Assembly: GCA_041649635.1 (NCBI GenBank)
Contig: JBAZMV010000001.1
Location: forward strand, 281,197 to 345,196
From: Dehalococcoidia bacterium
GTDB taxonomy: Bacteria > Chloroflexota > Dehalococcoidia > E44-bin15
Length of the DNA stretch: 64,000 bases
Reading direction: 5' to 3'
This document shows, in pieces, positions 28,604 through 43,372 of the stretch; position 1 is the first letter of the stretch; each line of letters begins with the position of its first letter. The notes under the pieces are model-generated. The model had not been told where the DNA came from. It saw only the letters and a program-made list of their open reading frames with translations, and searched no databases. The position numbers and the translations under genes were made by a program.

Positions 28604-28697
28604 AAAGAGGTGTCCTTCCAGTACTGGAAGGACCGGGGGAAATCGGGGGTGTTCCCCGACCCACCGTTCCCCCAAGATTGGGGGTTAGGGGGTTGAA
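28604..28697 (+). repeat. Structured intergenic repeat, copy 1 (most divergent)
   Basis: AAGAGGTG; hairpin TCCTTCCAG-TACT-CTGGAAGGA; CCGGGGG..GGGGTGTTCCCC; TTCCCCCAAGATTGGGGG; GGGGGTTGA. Lies between miaA and hflX. Confidence 0.6.
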
Positions 28698-31804: not shown

Positions 31805-32257
31805 ATGAAGCTGATAGCCAATAACCGCAAAGCTTACCACGATTACATTATCCTTGAAAGCTTCGAGGCTGGCATTATCCTGACCGGCACCGAGATCAAA
31901 TCGATAAGGGCGGGGCGGGTCAATTTAAAAGAAGGGTACGCCCGGCCGGACGGCGGCGAGATGTGGCTGTACAATGTCCATATCTCTACATACGACCCGG
32001 GCAGCAGGTACAACCACGAGCCCACTCGCACCAGGAAGCTGCTGCTCCATCACAACCAGATAAATGAATTGGCTGGAAAGGCCACGCAGAAGGGATTTAC
32101 GTTAGTCCCGCTAAAGCTGTACCTTAACAAAAAAGGAATCGCAAAGGTGGAGATCGGCCTGGCCAGGGGCAAGAAGGTCTACGACAAGCGTGAGACCATG
32201 AGCCAACGCCAGGCGGACCGCGACATGGAACGCGCCATAAAAACCAATAAGCGATAG
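31805..32257 (+). CDS. smpB: SsrA-binding protein
   Basis: [11 protein letters not shown]...GTEIKS blocks and a C-terminal basic tail. Lies immediately upstream of the tmRNA gene. Confidence 0.9.
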
Positions 32258-32322: not shown

Positions 32323-32413
32323 GAGAGGTGCAGGATACTTCCTGCCGGGGTTTTAGGGGTGTCCCCTAATTCTTTTACATTTCCCCCAAGATTGGGGGAT
32401 AAAAGGGGGTTGA
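32323..32413 (+). repeat. Structured intergenic repeat, copy 2 (immediately upstream of ssrA)
   Basis: GAGAGGTG; CAGGA-TACT-TCCTG; CCGGGGTTTTAGGGGTGTCCCCTAATTCTTTTACATTTCCCCCAAGATTGGGGGATAAAAGGGGGTTGA. The 3' TTGATT, 17 nt and CTAATA could serve as the ssrA promoter. Confidence 0.6.
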
Positions 32414-32440
32414 TTTGCACAATCTGCATTCTCTAATATC

Positions 32441-32788
32441 GGGGACGAGTGGTTTCGACAGAGTTGGAGTGCTCCAGGATTGCAGGCCGAGCCGCCATTA
32501 ACTCGTAAAACTGGTGGCAAAAAAGTAACTGACAAAGAATTCGTCTACGCTAGCTAAGCGCTGACACACCACCCGACTTTCACCCGGCGAACGAGGGCTG
32601 GTGACGATTAGCCGGGATGCGGCGAGCGCAACGCCGATAGCGTCCGCCAAAGTAAAAACTCGGCTGGTTTGGGCATGCGCGGCCGACAGTGCATGTTCAG
32701 GCGAGAAAACAATCGCCGGCTAAGCTTGTAGTACATCCGGAGTTGGACTTCTCTGGACGGGGAGTTCGACCCTCCCCCGTCTCCACCA
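32441..32788 (+). ncRNA. ssrA: Transfer-messenger RNA (tmRNA)
   Basis: 5' GGGGACGAGTGGTTTCGACAG (acceptor/D-like). 3' T-arm GGAGTTCGACCCTCC and acceptor CGTCTCC-A-CCA pairing with the 5' GGGGACG. An internal short ORF ends ...EFVYAS-TAA (candidate tag). smpB is adjacent. Confidence 0.8.
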
Positions 32789-32798
32789 GACAATTCGA

Positions 32799-32835
32799 GC
32801 CTCTGTTTTTATAAAATCAGGGGCTCTTTTGTTAT
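32799..32835 (+). terminator. Intrinsic terminator downstream of ssrA
   Basis: GAGCCTCTG-(12 nt)-CAGGGGCTC hairpin followed by TTTTGTT. Confidence 0.55.
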
Positions 32836-32977
32836 CCCCATATAAAAAGACTCGCCCGTCGAAATAAACCGCTCTAATCAAAGAAAAAGGCAATGCAGTA
32901 TTGACATTATTGATTTTTATGGTATTATATATTAAGAATATTAATTATCAACTCAAAAATATTAATGGCGGTGAAAA

Positions 32978-33340
32978 ATGGCTCAAGAATGGCAGAAGCT
33001 GACAAAGATGACCCAGGGCAAACCGGTAACGGTCGAACGTGTTCGCTTGATTGACAGCGACATAGCTATCGAGGGCAGCTTTACGCTCCCGCCTCTGGCC
33101 AACCTGCCGGCGGAGGACCAGGTCTTTGTTATAACCTTCGTCCGCTGTCACGGCTCCATCAAGGAGATGGAGGAGATGTTCGGCATAAGCTACCCCACCG
33201 TGAAGAACCGGATCAACCGCATCGCCCAGCAGCTCGAGCTTGTCGAAACCGTGGATGTCCTGCCCGTCGAAGAAGTGATCGGCGAGCTCGAGAACGGGAA
33301 GATATCGGCCGACGAGGCCATAAGGAGGTTATCGAAATGA
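32978..33340 (+). CDS. DUF2089-family protein (HTH), zinc-ribbon cysteines lost
   Basis: IEGSFTLPPL...FVRCHGSIKEMEEMFGISYPTVKNRINRI matches the DUF2089 core (recalled). The N-terminal CxxC pairs typical of the family are absent. Confidence 0.55.
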   Translation: MAQEWQKLTKMTQGKPVTVERVRLIDSDIAIEGSFTLPPLANLPAEDQVFVITFVRCHGSIKEMEEMFGISYPTVKNRINRIAQQLELVETVDVLPVEEVIGELENGKISADEAIRRLSK

Positions 33341-33615
33341 ATCGACCACCCGTCTGGATACGCATTAAAATTCAGGGAGAACGAGGGGGTTTCAGGCTGT
33401 GGTTGCCGCTCTTTCTGCTGCTGCCGCTGGCGCTGGTAGTCCTGATCATCCTCTCGCCATTAATACTGATCGCCGTCATTGTTCTTTGGCCCAGCGGCTG
33501 GGGAAGATGGGCGCTGGCCGTCCTGAGAGCCGCCTACAACGTATTGTGCTCAATACGCGGCCTTAAGGTCGATATCCAAAGCCGCCGCGAAACCGTGTAT
33601 ATCTCGATACAATAA
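33337..33615 (+). CDS. Small hydrophobic membrane protein
   Basis: 92 aa with one or two TM helices. 4-nt overlap with the DUF2089 gene. Confidence 0.35.
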   Translation: MNRPPVWIRIKIQGERGGFRLWLPLFLLLPLALVVLIILSPLILIAVIVLWPSGWGRWALAVLRAAYNVLCSIRGLKVDIQSRRETVYISIQ

Positions 33616-33641
33616 TAAATATCAATGAGGAGGATACTTCC

Positions 33642-34085
33642 ATGTCTGAGAATAGAAAGAAGATACTGGAGATGCTGGCCGAGAACAAGATAAGCGTTGA
33701 CGATGCCTATCGCCTGCTTAATACTATCGATTCCGCGGAGGGCGGACGGGAAAGCACGCCGAAATCGGGAACGGCGGTTAAGGACAAGCCTAAATATCTG
33801 CGGGTCACTATATTACCCGATCCCGAACACGAGAAAAGCCAGGATGTCGATCGCGTCAACGTGCGCGTGCCCATGTCGCTGCTGCGCGCCGGCATCAAGC
33901 TGACCTCACTGATTCCCACCGAGGCCAGGGAAAAAGTAGACGGGGCGTTGAAGGACAAAGGCATCGATTTCAACACGCGTAATATGAAGCCGGAAGACAT
34001 TGAGGAGCTTATCGAGTCTTTAAGCGAGCTTGAAGTAGATATAGTTAGCAGCAAAGGGGAAAAGGTAAAGGTTTTTGTCGAGTAG
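33642..34085 (+). CDS. Hypothetical protein with N-terminal SHOCT-like motif
   Basis: KILEMLAENKISVDDAYRLL N-terminus with RBS GGAGG upstream. The same ISxDEA motif ends the DUF2089 protein. Confidence 0.4.
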   Translation: MSENRKKILEMLAENKISVDDAYRLLNTIDSAEGGRESTPKSGTAVKDKPKYLRVTILPDPEHEKSQDVDRVNVRVPMSLLRAGIKLTSLIPTEAREKVDGALKDKGIDFNTRNMKPEDIEELIESLSELEVDIVSSKGEKVKVFVE

Positions 34086-34093
34086 AGAATTAT

Positions 34094-34166
34094 TCGACCC
34101 TCCCCCACCTCCACCAGAAATAAAAGAGCCTCTGGCTTTATGTAAACCAGAGGCTCTTTTGTTATG
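34094..34166 (+). repeat. Degenerate direct repeat of tmRNA 3' end plus terminator (att-like remnant)
   Basis: TTCGACCCTCCCCCACCTCCACCAGA matches ssrA 32765-32790 at 24/26 nt. It is followed by GAGCCTCTGG-(11 nt)-CCAGAGGCTC and TTTTGTTAT, like the ssrA terminator. Confidence 0.6.
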
Positions 34167-34187
34167 AATCTTCCAAATGCCTATGGG

Positions 34188-34868
34188 CTAATTACCTTCT
34201 TCGTCTGCTAGCCCTCCAGTATATCTTGTTATTACATCAGCCAATTTTTCAAATATAAATTTTCCAAGATCATCGCTAACCTTTTTGATAAACTTAGCAT
34301 CCTCTTCCAGATCAGCCACGCTGACAAGTTCAGGGTCACTGTCTGCCCATCCAATTTTTCTCCATTTCGCATTCCTTGTCCAACTAAGGCGATGTGCTCG
34401 GTCATCGGTTCGATCCTGCATAGACCAAGTGGAGTGGACTATCCGATTACGTTTTTTACTGGCTTTATCTATCCTGTCAAACAAATCATCCAATTCTCGT
34501 ATGCTTTCATCATTACTCAACGCTTCAGGTTTTAACTTGTTTGTACTACCTAGTGACATATCACAGATCTCACGTAATTTATCAGCACTACGTAGTCTGT
34601 ACGCGCAAATCCCATGCAAGGCAATGGAAAGGTCTGAAAATGTCAGCGCATGCGCAAACGTGCTCACCAACTCGGGTGCATCTCCAAATAATAGACTCAT
34701 GTACATTACCATTTGCTCTTCAAGCGCAGCGCTAACAACGACCACTTTGCCAATGGCTTTCAGATGTTCATCAGTAGGTCCTTCCATTCCGAAAGCACCG
34801 TTATCATCATTTGCTTCATTTCCCATTCGACTATTCCTTTGCTTGGTAGCTATCTGCCTTCCCACCAA
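34188..34868 (-). CDS. Hypothetical protein, low-GC, HEPN-like Rx4H motif
   Basis: 226-aa ORF in a conspicuously AT-rich segment. Contains KKRNRIVHS (R-x4-H). No other family signal. Confidence 0.4.
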   Translation of the reverse strand: MVGRQIATKQRNSRMGNEANDDNGAFGMEGPTDEHLKAIGKVVVVSAALEEQMVMYMSLLFGDAPELVSTFAHALTFSDLSIALHGICAYRLRSADKLREICDMSLGSTNKLKPEALSNDESIRELDDLFDRIDKASKKRNRIVHSTWSMQDRTDDRAHRLSWTRNAKWRKIGWADSDPELVSVADLEEDAKFIKKVSDDLGKFIFEKLADVITRYTGGLADEEGN

Positions 34869-35019
34869 TCTACAATCTTAGCTTGTTAAATAAACCGCTC
34901 GAACTGTTCTTTTTTAGCCTTGCATATGGGACAGACGTCCTGCGAGCAGCTATTCCCTAGCACACAGGTACCTACAGACAGGGCATCTCCGTAGAGGATG
35001 AGAACTAGATGATCATTCT

Positions 35020-35208
35020 CTATTTCTTTACGGTTTTCTTCGCAGTCTTCTTTACGGGCTTCTTTGCGCTCTTCGCACTTGCGGAACTCACGCCCGTTGT
35101 TTTATGGCATACAATCTTATCGCCGCACATCGGGCAGAACTTCCAGTCCGTCCTGATCTCATACCTGCACACCTTGCACTTTACGATAGCTGCTATCTTT
35201 TTCTGCAT
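35020..35208 (-). CDS. Zinc-ribbon small protein with Lys-rich tail
   Basis: CKVC...CPMC zinc ribbon and C-terminal KKPVKKTAKKTVKK. An opposite-strand ORF at 35009-35290 overlaps it, so one of the two is spurious. Confidence 0.3.
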   Translation of the reverse strand: MQKKIAAIVKCKVCRYEIRTDWKFCPMCGDKIVCHKTTGVSSASAKSAKKPVKKTAKKTVKK

Positions 35209-38962: not shown

Positions 38963-39052
38963 AGAGGTGCAGGAGATTTTTCTCCTGCCGGGGTTTTAGG
39001 GGTGTCCCCTATTTTTTAGAGTCCCCCAAGAATGGGGGATACAGGGGGTTGA
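38963..39052 (+). repeat. Structured intergenic repeat, copy 3
   Basis: AGAGGTG; CAGGAGA-TTTT-TCTCCTG; CCGGGGTTTTAGGGGTGTCCCCTATTTTTTAGAGTCCCCCAAGAATGGGGGATACAGGGGGTTGA. Lies between acsB and acsD. Confidence 0.6.
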
Positions 39053-39118
39053 TAACCTTCATCTATCAGTTCCATAATTAATGCATCCGTAACTCTCGAA
39101 CCGTAAAGGAGAAGATAC

Positions 39119-43267: not shown

Positions 43268-43360
43268 GGGTGTGCAGAGGGTCTTCCCTCTGCCGGGGTT
43301 ATAGGGGTGTCCCCTAACTTTTTTTATTTTCCCCCAAGAGTGGGGGATACAGGGGGTTGA
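43268..43360 (+). repeat. Structured intergenic repeat, copy 4
   Basis: GGGTGTG; CAGAGGG-TCTT-CCCTCTG; CCGGGGTTATAGGGGTGTCCCCTAACTTTTTTTATTTTCCCCCAAGAGTGGGGGATACAGGGGGTTGA. Lies between convergent acsE and mutL. Confidence 0.6.
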
Positions 43361-43372
43361 TTAAGTTCACAA

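What the first reader, a model, noticed from the sequence alone, without database searches (positions are those of the whole stretch)
32765..34166. Duplicated tmRNA 3' end plus terminator brackets a 1.3-kb DUF2089 cassette (att-like remnant at ssrA)
The last 26 nt of ssrA (32765-32790, T-arm/acceptor) recur at 34094-34119 with 24/26 identity, followed by the same style of GAGCCTCTG hairpin and TTTTGTTAT. The two changed bases (GT to AC) destroy acceptor-stem pairing in the downstream copy, as expected for the displaced attR-side fragment after site-specific integration into the tmRNA 3' end. Three small genes lie between the repeats: DUF2089 with its zinc-ribbon cysteines lost, a small membrane protein, and a SHOCT-like protein. 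No integrase is present. This looks like a decayed or minimal integrative element. Alternatively the pattern may be the footprint of repeated integration and excision at the ssrA hotspot.
Basis: partly seen in the sequence, partly recalled or inferred. Interest (0 to 1): 0.6.

Follow-up and report, generated by a model that had tools for sequence, protein, structure and literature searches.

The report
Old integrase-less gene islet at tmRNA gene
A three-gene regulatory operon sits just after the tmRNA gene of an uncultured Dehalococcoidia bacterium, bracketed by a duplicated copy of the tmRNA 3' end; this is the scar of an old insertion at a known integration hotspot, so it is a real but fairly ordinary feature.

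Summary
An intact tmRNA gene lies at 32441-32788. Each copy is followed by a related terminator hairpin, and there are only two copies in the window. Between them lies a self-contained operon with its own promoter: a DUF2089-HTH gene, a small membrane protein gene and a SHOCT-like gene. No recombinase is present anywhere in roughly 3.8-64 kb.

- **Insertion polymorphism:** four related lineages carry the same cassette at the same site. One (L003) has an empty site whose junction is a hybrid of the two repeat copies. One (L004) carries a different cargo, a histidine kinase plus response regulator, bracketed by the same kind of repeat.
- **History:** flank and cassette trees indicate one ancestral insertion, vertical inheritance, and secondary deletion in L003.
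- **Relic, not active site:** the tmRNA-like part of the distal copy has decayed to different degrees between lineages, while the hairpin is conserved.
- **Likely enzyme:** DsiB-family large serine recombinases abut ssrA in related genomes, intact in L095 and truncated in L014.
- **Cargo:** elsewhere in Dehalococcoidia the same operon sits at unrelated sites without tmRNA fragments.

Verdict: an ancient, fixed, integrase-less ssrA islet, like the module-less ssrA islands of Dehalococcoides. It is a new member of a known kind, of modest interest.

The parts
31805..32257 (+). smpB, the tmRNA partner gene, directly upstream of ssrA. It served as the anchor for fetching related loci.
   Evidence: PF01668 SmpB, E 5.8e-61. 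The called gene is 150 aa.
32441..32788 (+). ssrA (tmRNA), intact. The acceptor stem is GGGGACG / CGTCTCC with the G3:U pair. The T-loop UUCGACC lies at 32765-32771 and the gene ends in CCA at 32786-32788.
   Evidence: Rfam RF00023, 135.9 bits, E 5e-53, full model 1-374. ARAGORN misses it.
32765..32790 (+). Proximal repeat copy (attL-like): T-loop, 3' T-stem, 3' acceptor strand, ACCA and 2 further nt. It is part of the functional gene.
32797..32835 (+). Terminator 1: hairpin GAGCCTCTG...CAGGGGCTC plus a T-tract. The right arm CAGGGGCTC is shared by the proximal copies of all cassette-bearing lineages.
   Evidence: Pattern search. Fold -18.3 kcal/mol, z -4.85. Comparison across loci.
32836..32880 (+). 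Duplicated flank after terminator 1. It is homologous to the native flank that holds the last codons of the convergent downstream gene (AAATAAACCGCTCTAA at 32862-32877). The duplicated unit therefore runs about 113 nt, 32765-32877.
   Evidence: Repeat D14, 15/16. Alignment with the L003 empty site. Exact 13-mer.
32901..32968 (+). The cassette's own promoter (TTGACA, 16 nt, TGnTATTAT; 32901-32928) and an operator-like pair of AATATTAAT repeats (32937-32945 and 32958-32966). Both are conserved upstream of homologous cassettes at non-ssrA sites.
   Evidence: Promoter scan, 11/12 matches with an extended -10. Upstream regions of L085, L088 and L090.
32978..33340 (+). Cargo gene 1: a 120-aa DUF2089-type HTH regulator without the N-terminal zinc-ribbon cysteines.
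   Evidence: PF09862, 70.3 bits. 7484 homologues; the best 120 are all 78-93% identical and nearly all 120 aa.
33337..33615 (+). Cargo gene 2: a 92-aa small hydrophobic (membrane) protein with a 4-nt overlap with gene 1.
   Evidence: No family hit. A 92-108-aa gene occupies this position in every homologous cassette.
33642..34085 (+). Cargo gene 3: a 147-aa protein with an N-terminal SHOCT-like domain.
   Evidence: PF22746, 24.5 bits, residues 3-31. Conserved as the third gene of the cassette.
34093..34118 (+). Distal repeat copy (attR-like relic), TTCGACCCTCCCCCACCTCCACCAGA: 24/26 identical to the ssrA 3' end, not part of any tmRNA.
   Evidence: Orthologous copies in L100 (22/24), L108 (21/24), L002 (only GTCTCCACCA left) and L096 (decayed).
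34122..34165 (.). Terminator 2: a 17-bp bidirectional hairpin with an A-tract and a T-tract. It serves the cassette (+) and the convergent gene (-). Its right arm CAGAGGCTC matches the single terminator of the empty site in L003.
   Evidence: Terminator scan. Folds of -26.7 (+) and -27.1 (-) kcal/mol. Kept in L096 with one compensatory A-T to G-C change while the tmRNA-like part decayed.
34166..34886 (-). Lineage-specific low-GC (0.41-0.44) segment holding a 212-aa orphan gene (34188-34826, minus strand). It is absent from L002 and L003, where the native flank follows terminator 2 almost directly. It is part of the variable zone downstream of the distal repeat.
   Evidence: BLAST coordinates. 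Composition. Only 6 homologues among 5.8 billion proteins. No family hit.
34887..35013 (-). Resumption of sequence shared with the empty site: the 3' end of a convergent rubredoxin-like or zinc-ribbon gene (...[15 protein letters not shown]).
   Evidence: 74-80% identical to L002 12233-12355 and L003 4140-4253. Sequences read.

Best explanation
The segment 32790-34165 is an ancient, now immobile, integrase-less genomic islet at the ssrA (tmRNA) integration hotspot of a Dehalococcoidia bacterium.

Proposed history. [quoted passage not shown] It carried a promoter-equipped DUF2089-HTH / small membrane protein / SHOCT-like operon next to an ssrA-3'-like attachment region (T-loop to CCA, terminator and a little flank). 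The recombination duplicated that roughly 70-113-nt region. One copy completes the functional tmRNA gene and terminates it. The other lies at the far side of the insert.

The enzyme was most likely a DsiB-family large serine recombinase supplied by an element backbone that has since been lost, or acting in trans. Such recombinases sit against ssrA in related genomes.

Since then the islet has been inherited vertically. The distal tmRNA-like fragment has no function and is decaying; the GT to AC change is two transitions. Its hairpin survives because it terminates the cassette and the convergent gene. The two repeats still recombine with each other, giving gene conversion in L100 and deletion of the whole cassette in L003.

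Shown: the duplication, the insertion/deletion polymorphism, alternative cargo at the same site, vertical inheritance, differential decay, and serine recombinases at ssrA in relatives.

Inferred: that a serine recombinase made this particular insertion, where the crossover fell, and that the islet is no longer mobile.
For: 1. The repeat is real and not a generic module.

2. Its left edge is the first base of the T-loop. Independent distal copies in other Dehalococcoidia loci also begin within the T-arm: L004, L012, L015 (two copies), L021 and L092. This matches the mid-T-loop insertion site reported for Dehalococcoides ssrA islands (PMC3146451).

3. Site polymorphism:
- L003 has ssrA plus one terminator, then the native flank 32 nt later.
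- L004 has a PAS-histidine kinase plus response regulator between ssrA and a 32-nt perfect repeat of its 3' end.
- L002, L096-98, L100-102 and L108 carry the same cassette as the window.

4. The L003 junction is a hybrid. Its spacer is of the proximal type (AAACAATC). Its hairpin right arm is of the distal type (CAGAGGCTC). This is the product expected from recombination between the two copies.

5. Trees:
- ctpA+smpB+tmRNA nucleotides place L003 as sister to (L002, L100) with 99% bootstrap, inside the cassette-bearing group.
- The protein tree gives 63% for the same placement.
- The ssrA-linked cassettes are monophyletic (100%), with a topology congruent with the flanks.

6. The distal tmRNA-like part matches the ssrA end at 22/24 (window), 22/24 (L100), 21/24 (L108), about 10 contiguous nt (L002), and is almost gone in L096. 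The hairpin is kept throughout, once through a compensatory change.

7. A 542-aa large serine recombinase is convergent with, and overlaps, the ssrA 3' end in provirus L095. It is 46% identical over its full length to the cluster that contains DsiB (AEI59440.1). L014 has a homologue at the same place that lacks its catalytic N-terminus.

8. The cassette is ordinary cargo. Homologous three-gene operons sit in three unrelated contexts with no tmRNA fragment nearby.
Against: - No recombinase or recombinase remnant is present in the islet or the window. No element backbone is left: only about 20 nt and 7 nt separate the cargo from the repeats. The link to a serine recombinase is therefore by analogy with relatives.
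- The duplicated unit (about 70-113 nt, including the terminator and a few codons of the neighbouring gene) is much longer than the 20-bp repeat of Dehalococcoides ssrA islands. RecA-dependent Campbell-type recombination could produce it equally well.
- The 15-bp motif reported upstream of Dehalococcoides repeats is not present here.
- The cassette's GC content is not atypical.
- The tmRNA gene tree alone puts L003 outside the cassette-bearing group (89%), and the smpB and ctpA trees disagree on details. The loss-versus-gain polarity therefore rests on about 2 kb and on neighbour-joining trees rooted on one outgroup.
Confidence: 0.72

Rival explanations
1. Integrase-independent origin. The operon was inserted by homologous (Campbell-type) recombination of a circularised DNA fragment carrying about 110 nt of ssrA-3' flank from a relative, or by a local duplication plus insertion. 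No dedicated site-specific recombinase was ever involved.
For: - The duplicated unit is long and includes the terminator and the last codons of the convergent gene. That is what a homology-driven single crossover would duplicate.
- The two copies demonstrably recombine with each other: they are 91% identical over 67 nt in L100 against 82% in the window, and the junction in L003 is a hybrid.
- No integrase or backbone remnant exists.
Against: - At least five independent islets with different cargo in different Dehalococcoidia all have the left end of the repeat inside the T-arm. That is a hallmark of site-specific sublocation preference.
- DsiB-family recombinases sit exactly at this position in relatives.
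- Random homologous events should also hit other conserved short sequences.
Confidence: 0.15
2. The distal copy in the window is not the original relic. It is a refreshed footprint of a later exogenous ssrA-targeting element that integrated and left again. The AC variant would be that element's att sequence.
For: - The exact 24-mer with CACCTCC occurs in three metagenome contigs, always as a non-tmRNA copy. In L092 it lies 2.3 kb downstream of a real ssrA whose own end is CGCCTCC.
- The window's sister lineage L096 has a heavily decayed distal copy, whereas the window's is nearly intact.
- The window alone has an extra low-GC 717-bp segment next to this copy.
Against: - The orthologous distal copies in L100 and L108 keep GT, so AC is simply derived in the window lineage.
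- Both changes are transitions, and the G to A falls in a CpG.
- The three matching contigs were found by searching for this exact variant, which is ascertainment bias. It is one mutation from the commonest Dehalococcoidia ssrA end.
- No simple integration/excision path places the variant to the left of the retained hairpin.
- The conserved motif upstream of the L092-L094 copies is absent here.
Confidence: 0.1
3. The distal tmRNA-like fragment is a functional RNA element, for example a tRNA-like 3' module that directs processing or stabilises the cassette mRNA, and is kept by selection.
For: - It lies between the last stop codon and the terminator, so it is transcribed with the operon.
- In the window, L100 and L108 the end of the ORF can pair with TTCGA(C/T) in a short hairpin.
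Against: - It is only half a T-arm plus one acceptor strand, with no partner strand.
- It is lost or scrambled in L002 and L096, although the operon and terminator are intact there.
- Homologous cassettes elsewhere have nothing like it.
- No Rfam family matches it beyond chance.
Confidence: 0.02
4. Assembly artefact: a chimeric join at a short repeat in a metagenome assembly.
For: The window comes from a metagenome assembly (ENA ERZ27247363).
Against: The same architecture is assembled independently in different samples and lineages: L002 from an NCBI MAG, L096-L099 from four Logan runs, L100-L102 from three JGI samples, and L108-L109 from two ENA samples.
Confidence: 0.01

Closest known systems
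Dehalococcoides ssrA-specific genomic islands (ssrA-GIs), in particular the 15 islands without an integration module that McMurdie et al. 2011 (PMC3146451) proposed to be cis-mobilizable elements
   Same: - Same bacterial class and same target gene.
[quoted passage not shown]
- Cargo is variable and strain-specific, and there are tandem repeats in some relatives (L015).
- DsiB-family serine recombinases sit convergent to ssrA in related genomes (L095, L014).
- There is no recombinase in the islet itself.
   Different: - The host is an uncultured, acetyl-CoA-synthase-bearing Dehalococcoidia lineage, not Dehalococcoides.
- The islet is tiny (1.3 kb against many kb) and has no reductive dehalogenase genes.
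- The repeat is 26 nt plus the terminator and some flank (about 70-113 nt), not 20 bp.
- The motif reported upstream of Dehalococcoides repeats is absent.
- Composition is not atypical.
- The islet is old and shared by several lineages rather than strain-specific.
Pseudo-SCC elements (SCC-like cassettes lacking ccr genes) at the 3' end of rlmH/orfX in staphylococci (from my own knowledge; the DsiB-CcrB homology is from PMC3146451)
   Same: Recombinase-less cassettes flanked by direct repeats of the 3' end of a single-copy essential gene. They sit in arrays with elements that do carry the related large serine recombinases.
   Different: The target gene, the host phylum and the repeat sequence all differ. 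Mobilisation in trans is documented for SCC but not tested here.
Genomic islands and prophages with tyrosine integrases in tmRNA genes of Proteobacteria (Williams, 'Traffic at the tmRNA gene', cited as ref. 24 in PMC3146451; details from my own knowledge)
   Same: Integration into the 3' part of ssrA. The element restores the gene's 3' end, and a fragment copy marks the far boundary.
   Different: No tyrosine integrase is seen here or next to ssrA in the related loci examined. The recombinases found there are large serine recombinases.
DUF2089 (zinc ribbon - HTH - SHOCT-like) regulators in membrane-stress signalling neighbourhoods (Ravi et al. 2024, PMC11237479)
   Same: The cargo's first gene has the DUF2089 HTH. 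It is followed by a small membrane protein and a SHOCT-like protein, which fits a membrane-proximal signal-to-transcription module.
   Different: The zinc-ribbon cysteines are absent. The SHOCT-like part is split onto a separate protein. No Toastrack, PspC or LiaF partner is present. No experimental function is known.

Membership tests
tmRNA (Rfam RF00023) | Covariance-model score above the gathering score, with a tRNA-like domain ending in CCA and a G3:U pair | tested here: met
   135.9 bits against 47, full model. The tag frame TDKE[F/Y]V[Y/F]AS* is conserved with synonymous changes in L003 and L004.
ssrA-specific genomic island (Dehalococcoides type, PMC3146451) | [quoted passage not shown] | tested here: met
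   The 26-nt repeat at 32765-32790 and 34093-34118 is 24/26 identical, with 0 expected by chance.
ssrA-specific genomic island (Dehalococcoides type, PMC3146451) | The repeat or insertion point lies in the T-loop of the tmRNA | tested here: met
   The repeat begins at the first T-loop base, 32765. Dehalococcoides repeats begin in the middle of the loop, so the position is close but not identical.
ssrA-specific genomic island (Dehalococcoides type, PMC3146451) | Interrupts synteny: relatives show an empty site or different content | tested here: met
   L003 is empty. L004 carries a histidine kinase and response regulator between equivalent repeats.
ssrA-specific genomic island (Dehalococcoides type, PMC3146451) | Integration module with the DsiB/DsiA serine recombinases next to attL | tested here: not met
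   No Resolvase or Recombinase domain and no tblastn remnant in the window. It is present next to ssrA in L095 (intact) and L014 (truncated). Fifteen of the published islands also lack it.
ssrA-specific genomic island (Dehalococcoides type, PMC3146451) | Conserved 15-bp motif TTCAGRSMGMRKCCA directly upstream of the distal repeat | tested here: not met
   The 15 nt upstream of 34093 are TCGAGTAGAGAATTA, which does not fit the motif.
Cis-mobilizable element (CIME) | Flanked by att-type repeats and devoid of recombination and transfer genes | tested here: met
   Repeats are present. The three cargo genes have no recombinase or transfer domains.
Cis-mobilizable element (CIME) | Can be excised or integrated by a cognate recombinase supplied in trans | not testable with these tools
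   This needs an experiment or read-level evidence. Decay of the distal copy in L002 and L096 argues that the site is not maintained by selection. Loss in L003 shows only that repeat-to-repeat recombination happens.
Integrative element with a tyrosine integrase at a tRNA or tmRNA gene | Phage_integrase-family gene adjacent to the att site | tested here: not met
   None in the window, nor next to ssrA in the related loci whose neighbours were scanned.
DUF2089 family (Pfam PF09862 plus zinc ribbon plus SHOCT-like C-terminus) | DUF2089 HTH domain above the gathering score | tested here: met
   70.3 bits against 33.4.
DUF2089 family (Pfam PF09862 plus zinc ribbon plus SHOCT-like C-terminus) | N-terminal zinc ribbon (CxxC pairs) and C-terminal SHOCT-like domain in the same protein | tested here: not met
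   No zinc-ribbon hit, and no cysteines before residue 57 (translation of 32978-33340). The C-terminal SHOCT-like match is below the cut-off (19.3 against 27). This Cys-less 120-aa form is itself widespread.

The most novel reading that the evidence does not exclude
In Dehalococcoidia the module 'ssrA 3' end plus terminator' may work as a reusable landing pad. DsiB-family serine recombinases encoded elsewhere (on a prophage or island) would capture and shuffle small promoter-bearing gene cassettes at ssrA in trans. That would be an integron-like cassette system built on a tmRNA gene. The tightly packed, recombinase-less islets would be its cassettes: the window, L004, L012, L015, L021 and L092, each consisting of one to three genes plus a repeat and a terminator.
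Probability: 0.1. Interest if true: 0.6.

Novelty: new member of a known kind. Interest (0 to 1): 0.3.

Why it matters
It shows that the ssrA integration hotspot described for organohalide-respiring Dehalococcoides extends to uncultured, acetogenic-type Dehalococcoidia lineages. It documents several stages of such an island: an intact recombinase in L095, a truncated recombinase in L014, a recombinase-less cassette in the window, and repeat-mediated loss in L003. It also shows how a core-like regulatory operon can become fixed next to an essential RNA gene.

For annotation it gives a practical warning. Partial tmRNA 3' ends downstream of ssrA in this class are island scars, not second tmRNA genes. 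ARAGORN can also miss the real gene.

It opens no major question. It is a tidy comparative example of a known process.

Tried and rejected
1. Foreign tmRNA donor. The distal CACCTCC would pair perfectly with a GGGGGTG 5' strand. I therefore searched 241 million metagenome contigs for the exact 24-mer. It occurs only in three non-tmRNA copies, so no donor tmRNA exists in that collection. Orthologous distal copies in L100 and L108 keep GT. I therefore rate AC as ordinary decay.

2. The 212-aa orphan as a remnant of a serine recombinase C-terminus. There is no similarity to the L095 recombinase (E 3.0).

3. Recombinase remnants in the window. tblastn with the L095 recombinase finds only the trivial reverse-complement match to ssrA.

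4. Viral-contig scans:
- The ssrA end pattern found only the L095 provirus.
- The conserved arm upstream of the distal copies in L015, L021 and L094 gave 0 hits.
- Relatives of the recombinase returned only the query itself.
- No episomal attP form was found.

5. A third, far-end repeat beyond the variable genes in the window, L096 and L100. None was found by regex or blastn-short. A weak CCACCA...ACAAT resemblance at 34863-34880 is within chance.

6. Family libraries (Pfam, NCBIfam, PADLOC) gave nothing for the orphan or the 92-aa membrane protein.

7. An exact-sequence look-up of my 155-aa SmpB ORF failed because the called gene starts five codons later.

8. One Biopython bootstrap run timed out and was replaced by a numpy version.
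Full report
**1. What is in the sequence**

Infernal finds a single full-length tmRNA gene at 32441-32788 on the + strand (RF00023, 135.9 bits against a gathering score of 47). ARAGORN reports nothing. smpB lies just upstream at 31805-32257.

The 26 nt from the first T-loop base to two bases past CCA (32765-32790) recur at 34093-34118 with two mismatches, GT to AC. No match is expected in shuffled sequence, and no third copy exists in the window.

Each copy is followed, after a 6-7-nt spacer, by a hairpin GAGCCTCTG...C(A/G)G(A/G)GGCTC and then TTTTGTTAT. That module also occurs only twice. Both hairpins are strong: -18.3 and -26.7 kcal/mol, z -4.9 and -7.6. The second is flanked by an A-tract and a T-tract and folds equally well on the minus strand, so it is a bidirectional terminator.

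A further short match suggests that the duplicated unit is about 113 nt. AAATAAACCGCTC[T/G]AA appears at 32862-32877 and at 34888-34903. The second site is exactly where homology to relatives resumes. That would carry the duplication into the last codons of the convergent downstream gene.

**2. The cargo**

Between the copies lies a compact operon with its own near-consensus promoter (TTGACA, 16 nt, TGnTATTAT at 32901-32928):
- a 120-aa DUF2089-HTH protein (PF09862, 70.3 bits, no zinc ribbon);
- a 92-aa hydrophobic protein with no family;
- a 147-aa protein with an N-terminal SHOCT-like domain.

Only about 20 nt and 7 nt separate this unit from the repeats, so no element backbone is left.

The 120-aa Cys-less form is common and well conserved. 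There are 7484 homologues, and the best 120 are 78-93% identical and almost all 120 aa. The 'lost cysteines' are therefore a subfamily trait, not decay of this copy.

The same three-gene operon, with a similar promoter and AATATTAAT-type repeats, sits in three unrelated chromosomal contexts in other Dehalococcoidia (L085, L088/89, L090/91). None has a tmRNA fragment nearby. It is thus ordinary cargo. DUF2089 proteins have been proposed, from gene neighbourhoods, to couple membrane-proximal signals to transcription (PMC11237479). That is the best available guess for its function.

**3. Surroundings**

The window is part of a 299-kb contig of a Dehalococcoidia MAG (ENA ERZ27247363). The precomputed Pfam annotation of all called genes from about 3.8 to 64 kb shows core metabolism and the acetyl-CoA synthase cluster. 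It shows no recombinase of any kind.

The cassette's GC content (0.52-0.57) does not stand out. The 717 bp after the second hairpin (34166-34886) are low in GC (0.41-0.44) and hold a 212-aa orphan gene on the minus strand.

**4. Relatives: the decisive comparison**

Loci were fetched through SmpB and through the DUF2089 protein. They show the following states of the site.

| Locus | State of the ssrA site |
|---|---|
| L002 | Same cassette; 85% nucleotide identity over tmRNA plus cassette |
| L096-98 | Same cassette; 85% nucleotide identity |
| L100-102 | Same cassette; 83% nucleotide identity |
| L108 | Same cassette |
| L003 | Empty: ssrA plus one terminator, then the homologue of window 34887 onwards 32 nt later |

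More distant Dehalococcoidia also carry extra partial ssrA ends 0.6-2.7 kb downstream of ssrA. Small recombinase-less gene sets lie between the copies: L012, L015 (two copies), L021 and L092. In all of these the repeat starts within the T-arm.

There is indel polymorphism, and the repeat is not a generic terminator.

**5. History of the insert**

Neighbour-joining trees of the flanking genes give (window, L096) and (L002, L100) as pairs. L003 is sister to (L002, L100):
- 99% bootstrap for ctpA+smpB+tmRNA nucleotides rooted on L004;
- 100% for ctpA alone;
- 63% for the protein tree.

The 348-nt tmRNA alone disagrees: L003 falls outside the four, at 89%. smpB pairs L003 with L100. Some recombination in the region is therefore likely, and the polarity is not beyond doubt.

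The ssrA-linked cassettes are monophyletic (100%), and their topology is congruent with the flanks. Together this indicates one insertion in the common ancestor, vertical inheritance, and secondary loss in L003.

The L003 junction fits that reading. Its spacer (AAACAATC) is of the proximal type. Its hairpin right arm (CAGAGGCTC) is of the type found in every distal copy, whereas every proximal copy has CAGGGGCTC. That is the product expected from a crossover between the two repeats in the hairpin.

The repeats also exchange sequence without deletion. In L100 the two copies are 91% identical over 67 nt, and the proximal spacer and loop are of the distal type.

**6. The distal copy is a decaying relic**

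The orthologous distal copies are:

| Locus | Distal copy | Match to ssrA end |
|---|---|---|
| window | TTCGACCCTCCCCCACCTCCACCA | 22/24 |
| L100 | TTCGATCCTACCCCGTCTCCACCA | 22/24 |
| L108 | TTCGATCCGCACCCGTCTCCACCA | 21/24 |
| L002 | ...GAGACACCACTGTCTCCACCA | only the last ~10 nt recognisable |
| L096 | TCGAAACTATTAAATATTCACCA | almost gone |

The hairpin is retained in all of them. In L096 it is retained through a compensatory A-T to G-C change. So the tmRNA-like part is under no lasting constraint, and the hairpin is.

The ancestral distal copy had GT. The window's AC is two transitions, and the G to A lies in a CpG.

I first suspected that AC marked a foreign attachment sequence. The exact 24-mer turns up in three metagenome contigs as a non-tmRNA copy, once 2.3 kb downstream of a real ssrA ending in CGCCTCC. 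Given the ascertainment bias and the L100 and L108 data, I now give that idea about 10%.

**7. The likely enzyme**

In provirus L095 (IMG/VR), a 542-aa large serine recombinase is convergent with ssrA. It has Resolvase, Recombinase and zinc-ribbon domains. Its last 22 or so codons are the reverse complement of the ssrA 3' end. Phage RepO and DnaB genes follow.

It is 46% identical over its full length to a Dehalococcoides mccartyi protein. That protein's 90% cluster contains DsiB (AEI59440.1), the recombinase McMurdie et al. named for the ssrA islands (PMC3146451).

L014 has a 59%-identical homologue at the same position that lacks the catalytic N-terminal 125 residues. It is a decaying integration module.

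The published Dehalococcoides system has these features:
- a 20-bp repeat of the ssrA end;
- insertion in the T-loop;
- tandem islands;
- fifteen islands without an integration module, proposed to be cis-mobilizable elements.

The window's islet is best filed with that last group.

**8. Mechanism, and what remains inferred**

Shown:
- the duplication;
- the polymorphism;
- alternative cargo at the same site;
- vertical descent;
- repeat-to-repeat recombination;
- decay of the distal fragment;
- DsiB-family recombinases at ssrA in relatives.

Inferred:
- that such a recombinase, on a lost backbone or in trans, made this insertion;
- where the crossover fell. The mosaic pattern fits either a crossover in the hairpin stem or later conversion;
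- that the islet can no longer move.

The main rival is a homology-driven Campbell-type insertion (about 15%). The unusually long duplicated unit and the absence of any backbone favour it. The recurrent T-arm boundary in independent islets counts against it.

A functional role for the distal fragment is essentially excluded by its loss in L002 and L096. An assembly artefact is excluded by independent assemblies.

**9. The variable zone**

Downstream of the distal hairpin the content is lineage-specific:
- the orphan gene in the window;
- nothing in L002;
- a 1303-aa receiver-LuxR-cyclase-STAND protein plus a metallo-beta-lactamase-fold protein in L096;
- TPR, metallo-beta-lactamase-fold and DUF7662 proteins in L100.

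No further repeat marks the far ends.

The orphan has only six homologues among 5.8 billion proteins, and these lie in differing contexts. In L105 it follows a rubredoxin-domain gene and precedes a GAGCCTCTGG hairpin, colinear with the window's minus strand.

**10. Verdict**

It is a small, old, recombinase-less islet at a hotspot already described for this bacterial class. I rate it a new member of a known kind, with interest about 0.3.

The most novel reading still open is an integron-like cassette capture system at ssrA driven by serine recombinases in trans. I give it about 10%.

Noticed in passing
window 32441-32788 (tag frame about 32528-32557): ARAGORN finds no tmRNA in the window, although Infernal scores it at 135.9 bits. 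The apparent tag frame ACT GAC AAA GAA TTC GTC TAC GCT AGC TAA (TDKEFVYAS*) is conserved with synonymous and conservative changes in L003 and L004. It ends in AS rather than the usual AA.
   Followed up: partly
window 32324-32414, 38963-39053, 43290-43362, partial copy 28667-28696: A 75-95-nt intergenic repeat with two small hairpins (GGGGTGTCCCC and CCCCCAAGANTGGGGG), 84-88% identical between copies. One copy lies directly upstream of ssrA. Others lie inside the acetyl-CoA synthase cluster and next to mutL. It is also present in L002. It looks REP- or MITE-like and has no Rfam match.
   Followed up: partly
window 34188-34826 (-): A 212-aa orphan gene in a low-GC (0.41-0.44) 717-bp segment that is absent from L002 and L003. 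It has only 6 homologues among 5.8 billion proteins, no family hit, and its homologues sit in different contexts each time.
   Followed up: partly
window 34886-35022 (-): The C-terminal rubredoxin-like part of the convergent gene reads ...[35 protein letters not shown] in the window. L003 has ...[36 protein letters not shown]. The first CxxC pair is lost, and the frame differs from the 62-aa zinc-ribbon ORF at 35020-35208. This is possibly a pseudogene or a split gene.
   Followed up: no
window 32930-32968; L085, L088 and L090 upstream of their cassettes: AATATTAAT occurs twice, 21 nt apart, between the -10 box and the start codon of the DUF2089 gene. Similar AT-rich repeats are conserved upstream of homologous cassettes at other chromosomal sites. 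This is a likely autoregulatory operator.
   Followed up: partly
L095 8786-10414 (+) and 10347-10370 (-): The DsiB-family serine recombinase ORF of this provirus runs across the attachment junction into ssrA. Its last 22 or so codons are the reverse complement of the tmRNA T-arm and acceptor. As a result, tblastn with its C-terminus hits the ssrA of nearly every Dehalococcoidia locus.
   Followed up: partly
L014 10741-12012 (-): A serine recombinase gene abutting ssrA that lacks the first 125 or so residues (the catalytic domain) and has stop codons upstream. It is a decaying integration module.
   Followed up: partly
L002, L003 and L100: ctpA against smpB against ssrA: Gene trees of adjacent genes conflict. 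ctpA gives (L002, L100) at 100%. smpB gives (L003, L100) at 100%. tmRNA places L003 outside all four cassette-bearing lineages. This suggests homologous recombination between lineages around ssrA.
   Followed up: partly
L092, L093, L094, L015 and L021: sequences just upstream of the distal ssrA-end copies: The distal copies in these loci share a conserved arm to their left (…atttcGGTGAGATGTAG / GGTGTGATGTAG…) that looks like a diverged 5' half of the T-stem. This points to one family of element ends spread over several Dehalococcoidia hosts. The same 70-aa membrane protein is cargo in both L021 and L092.
   Followed up: partly
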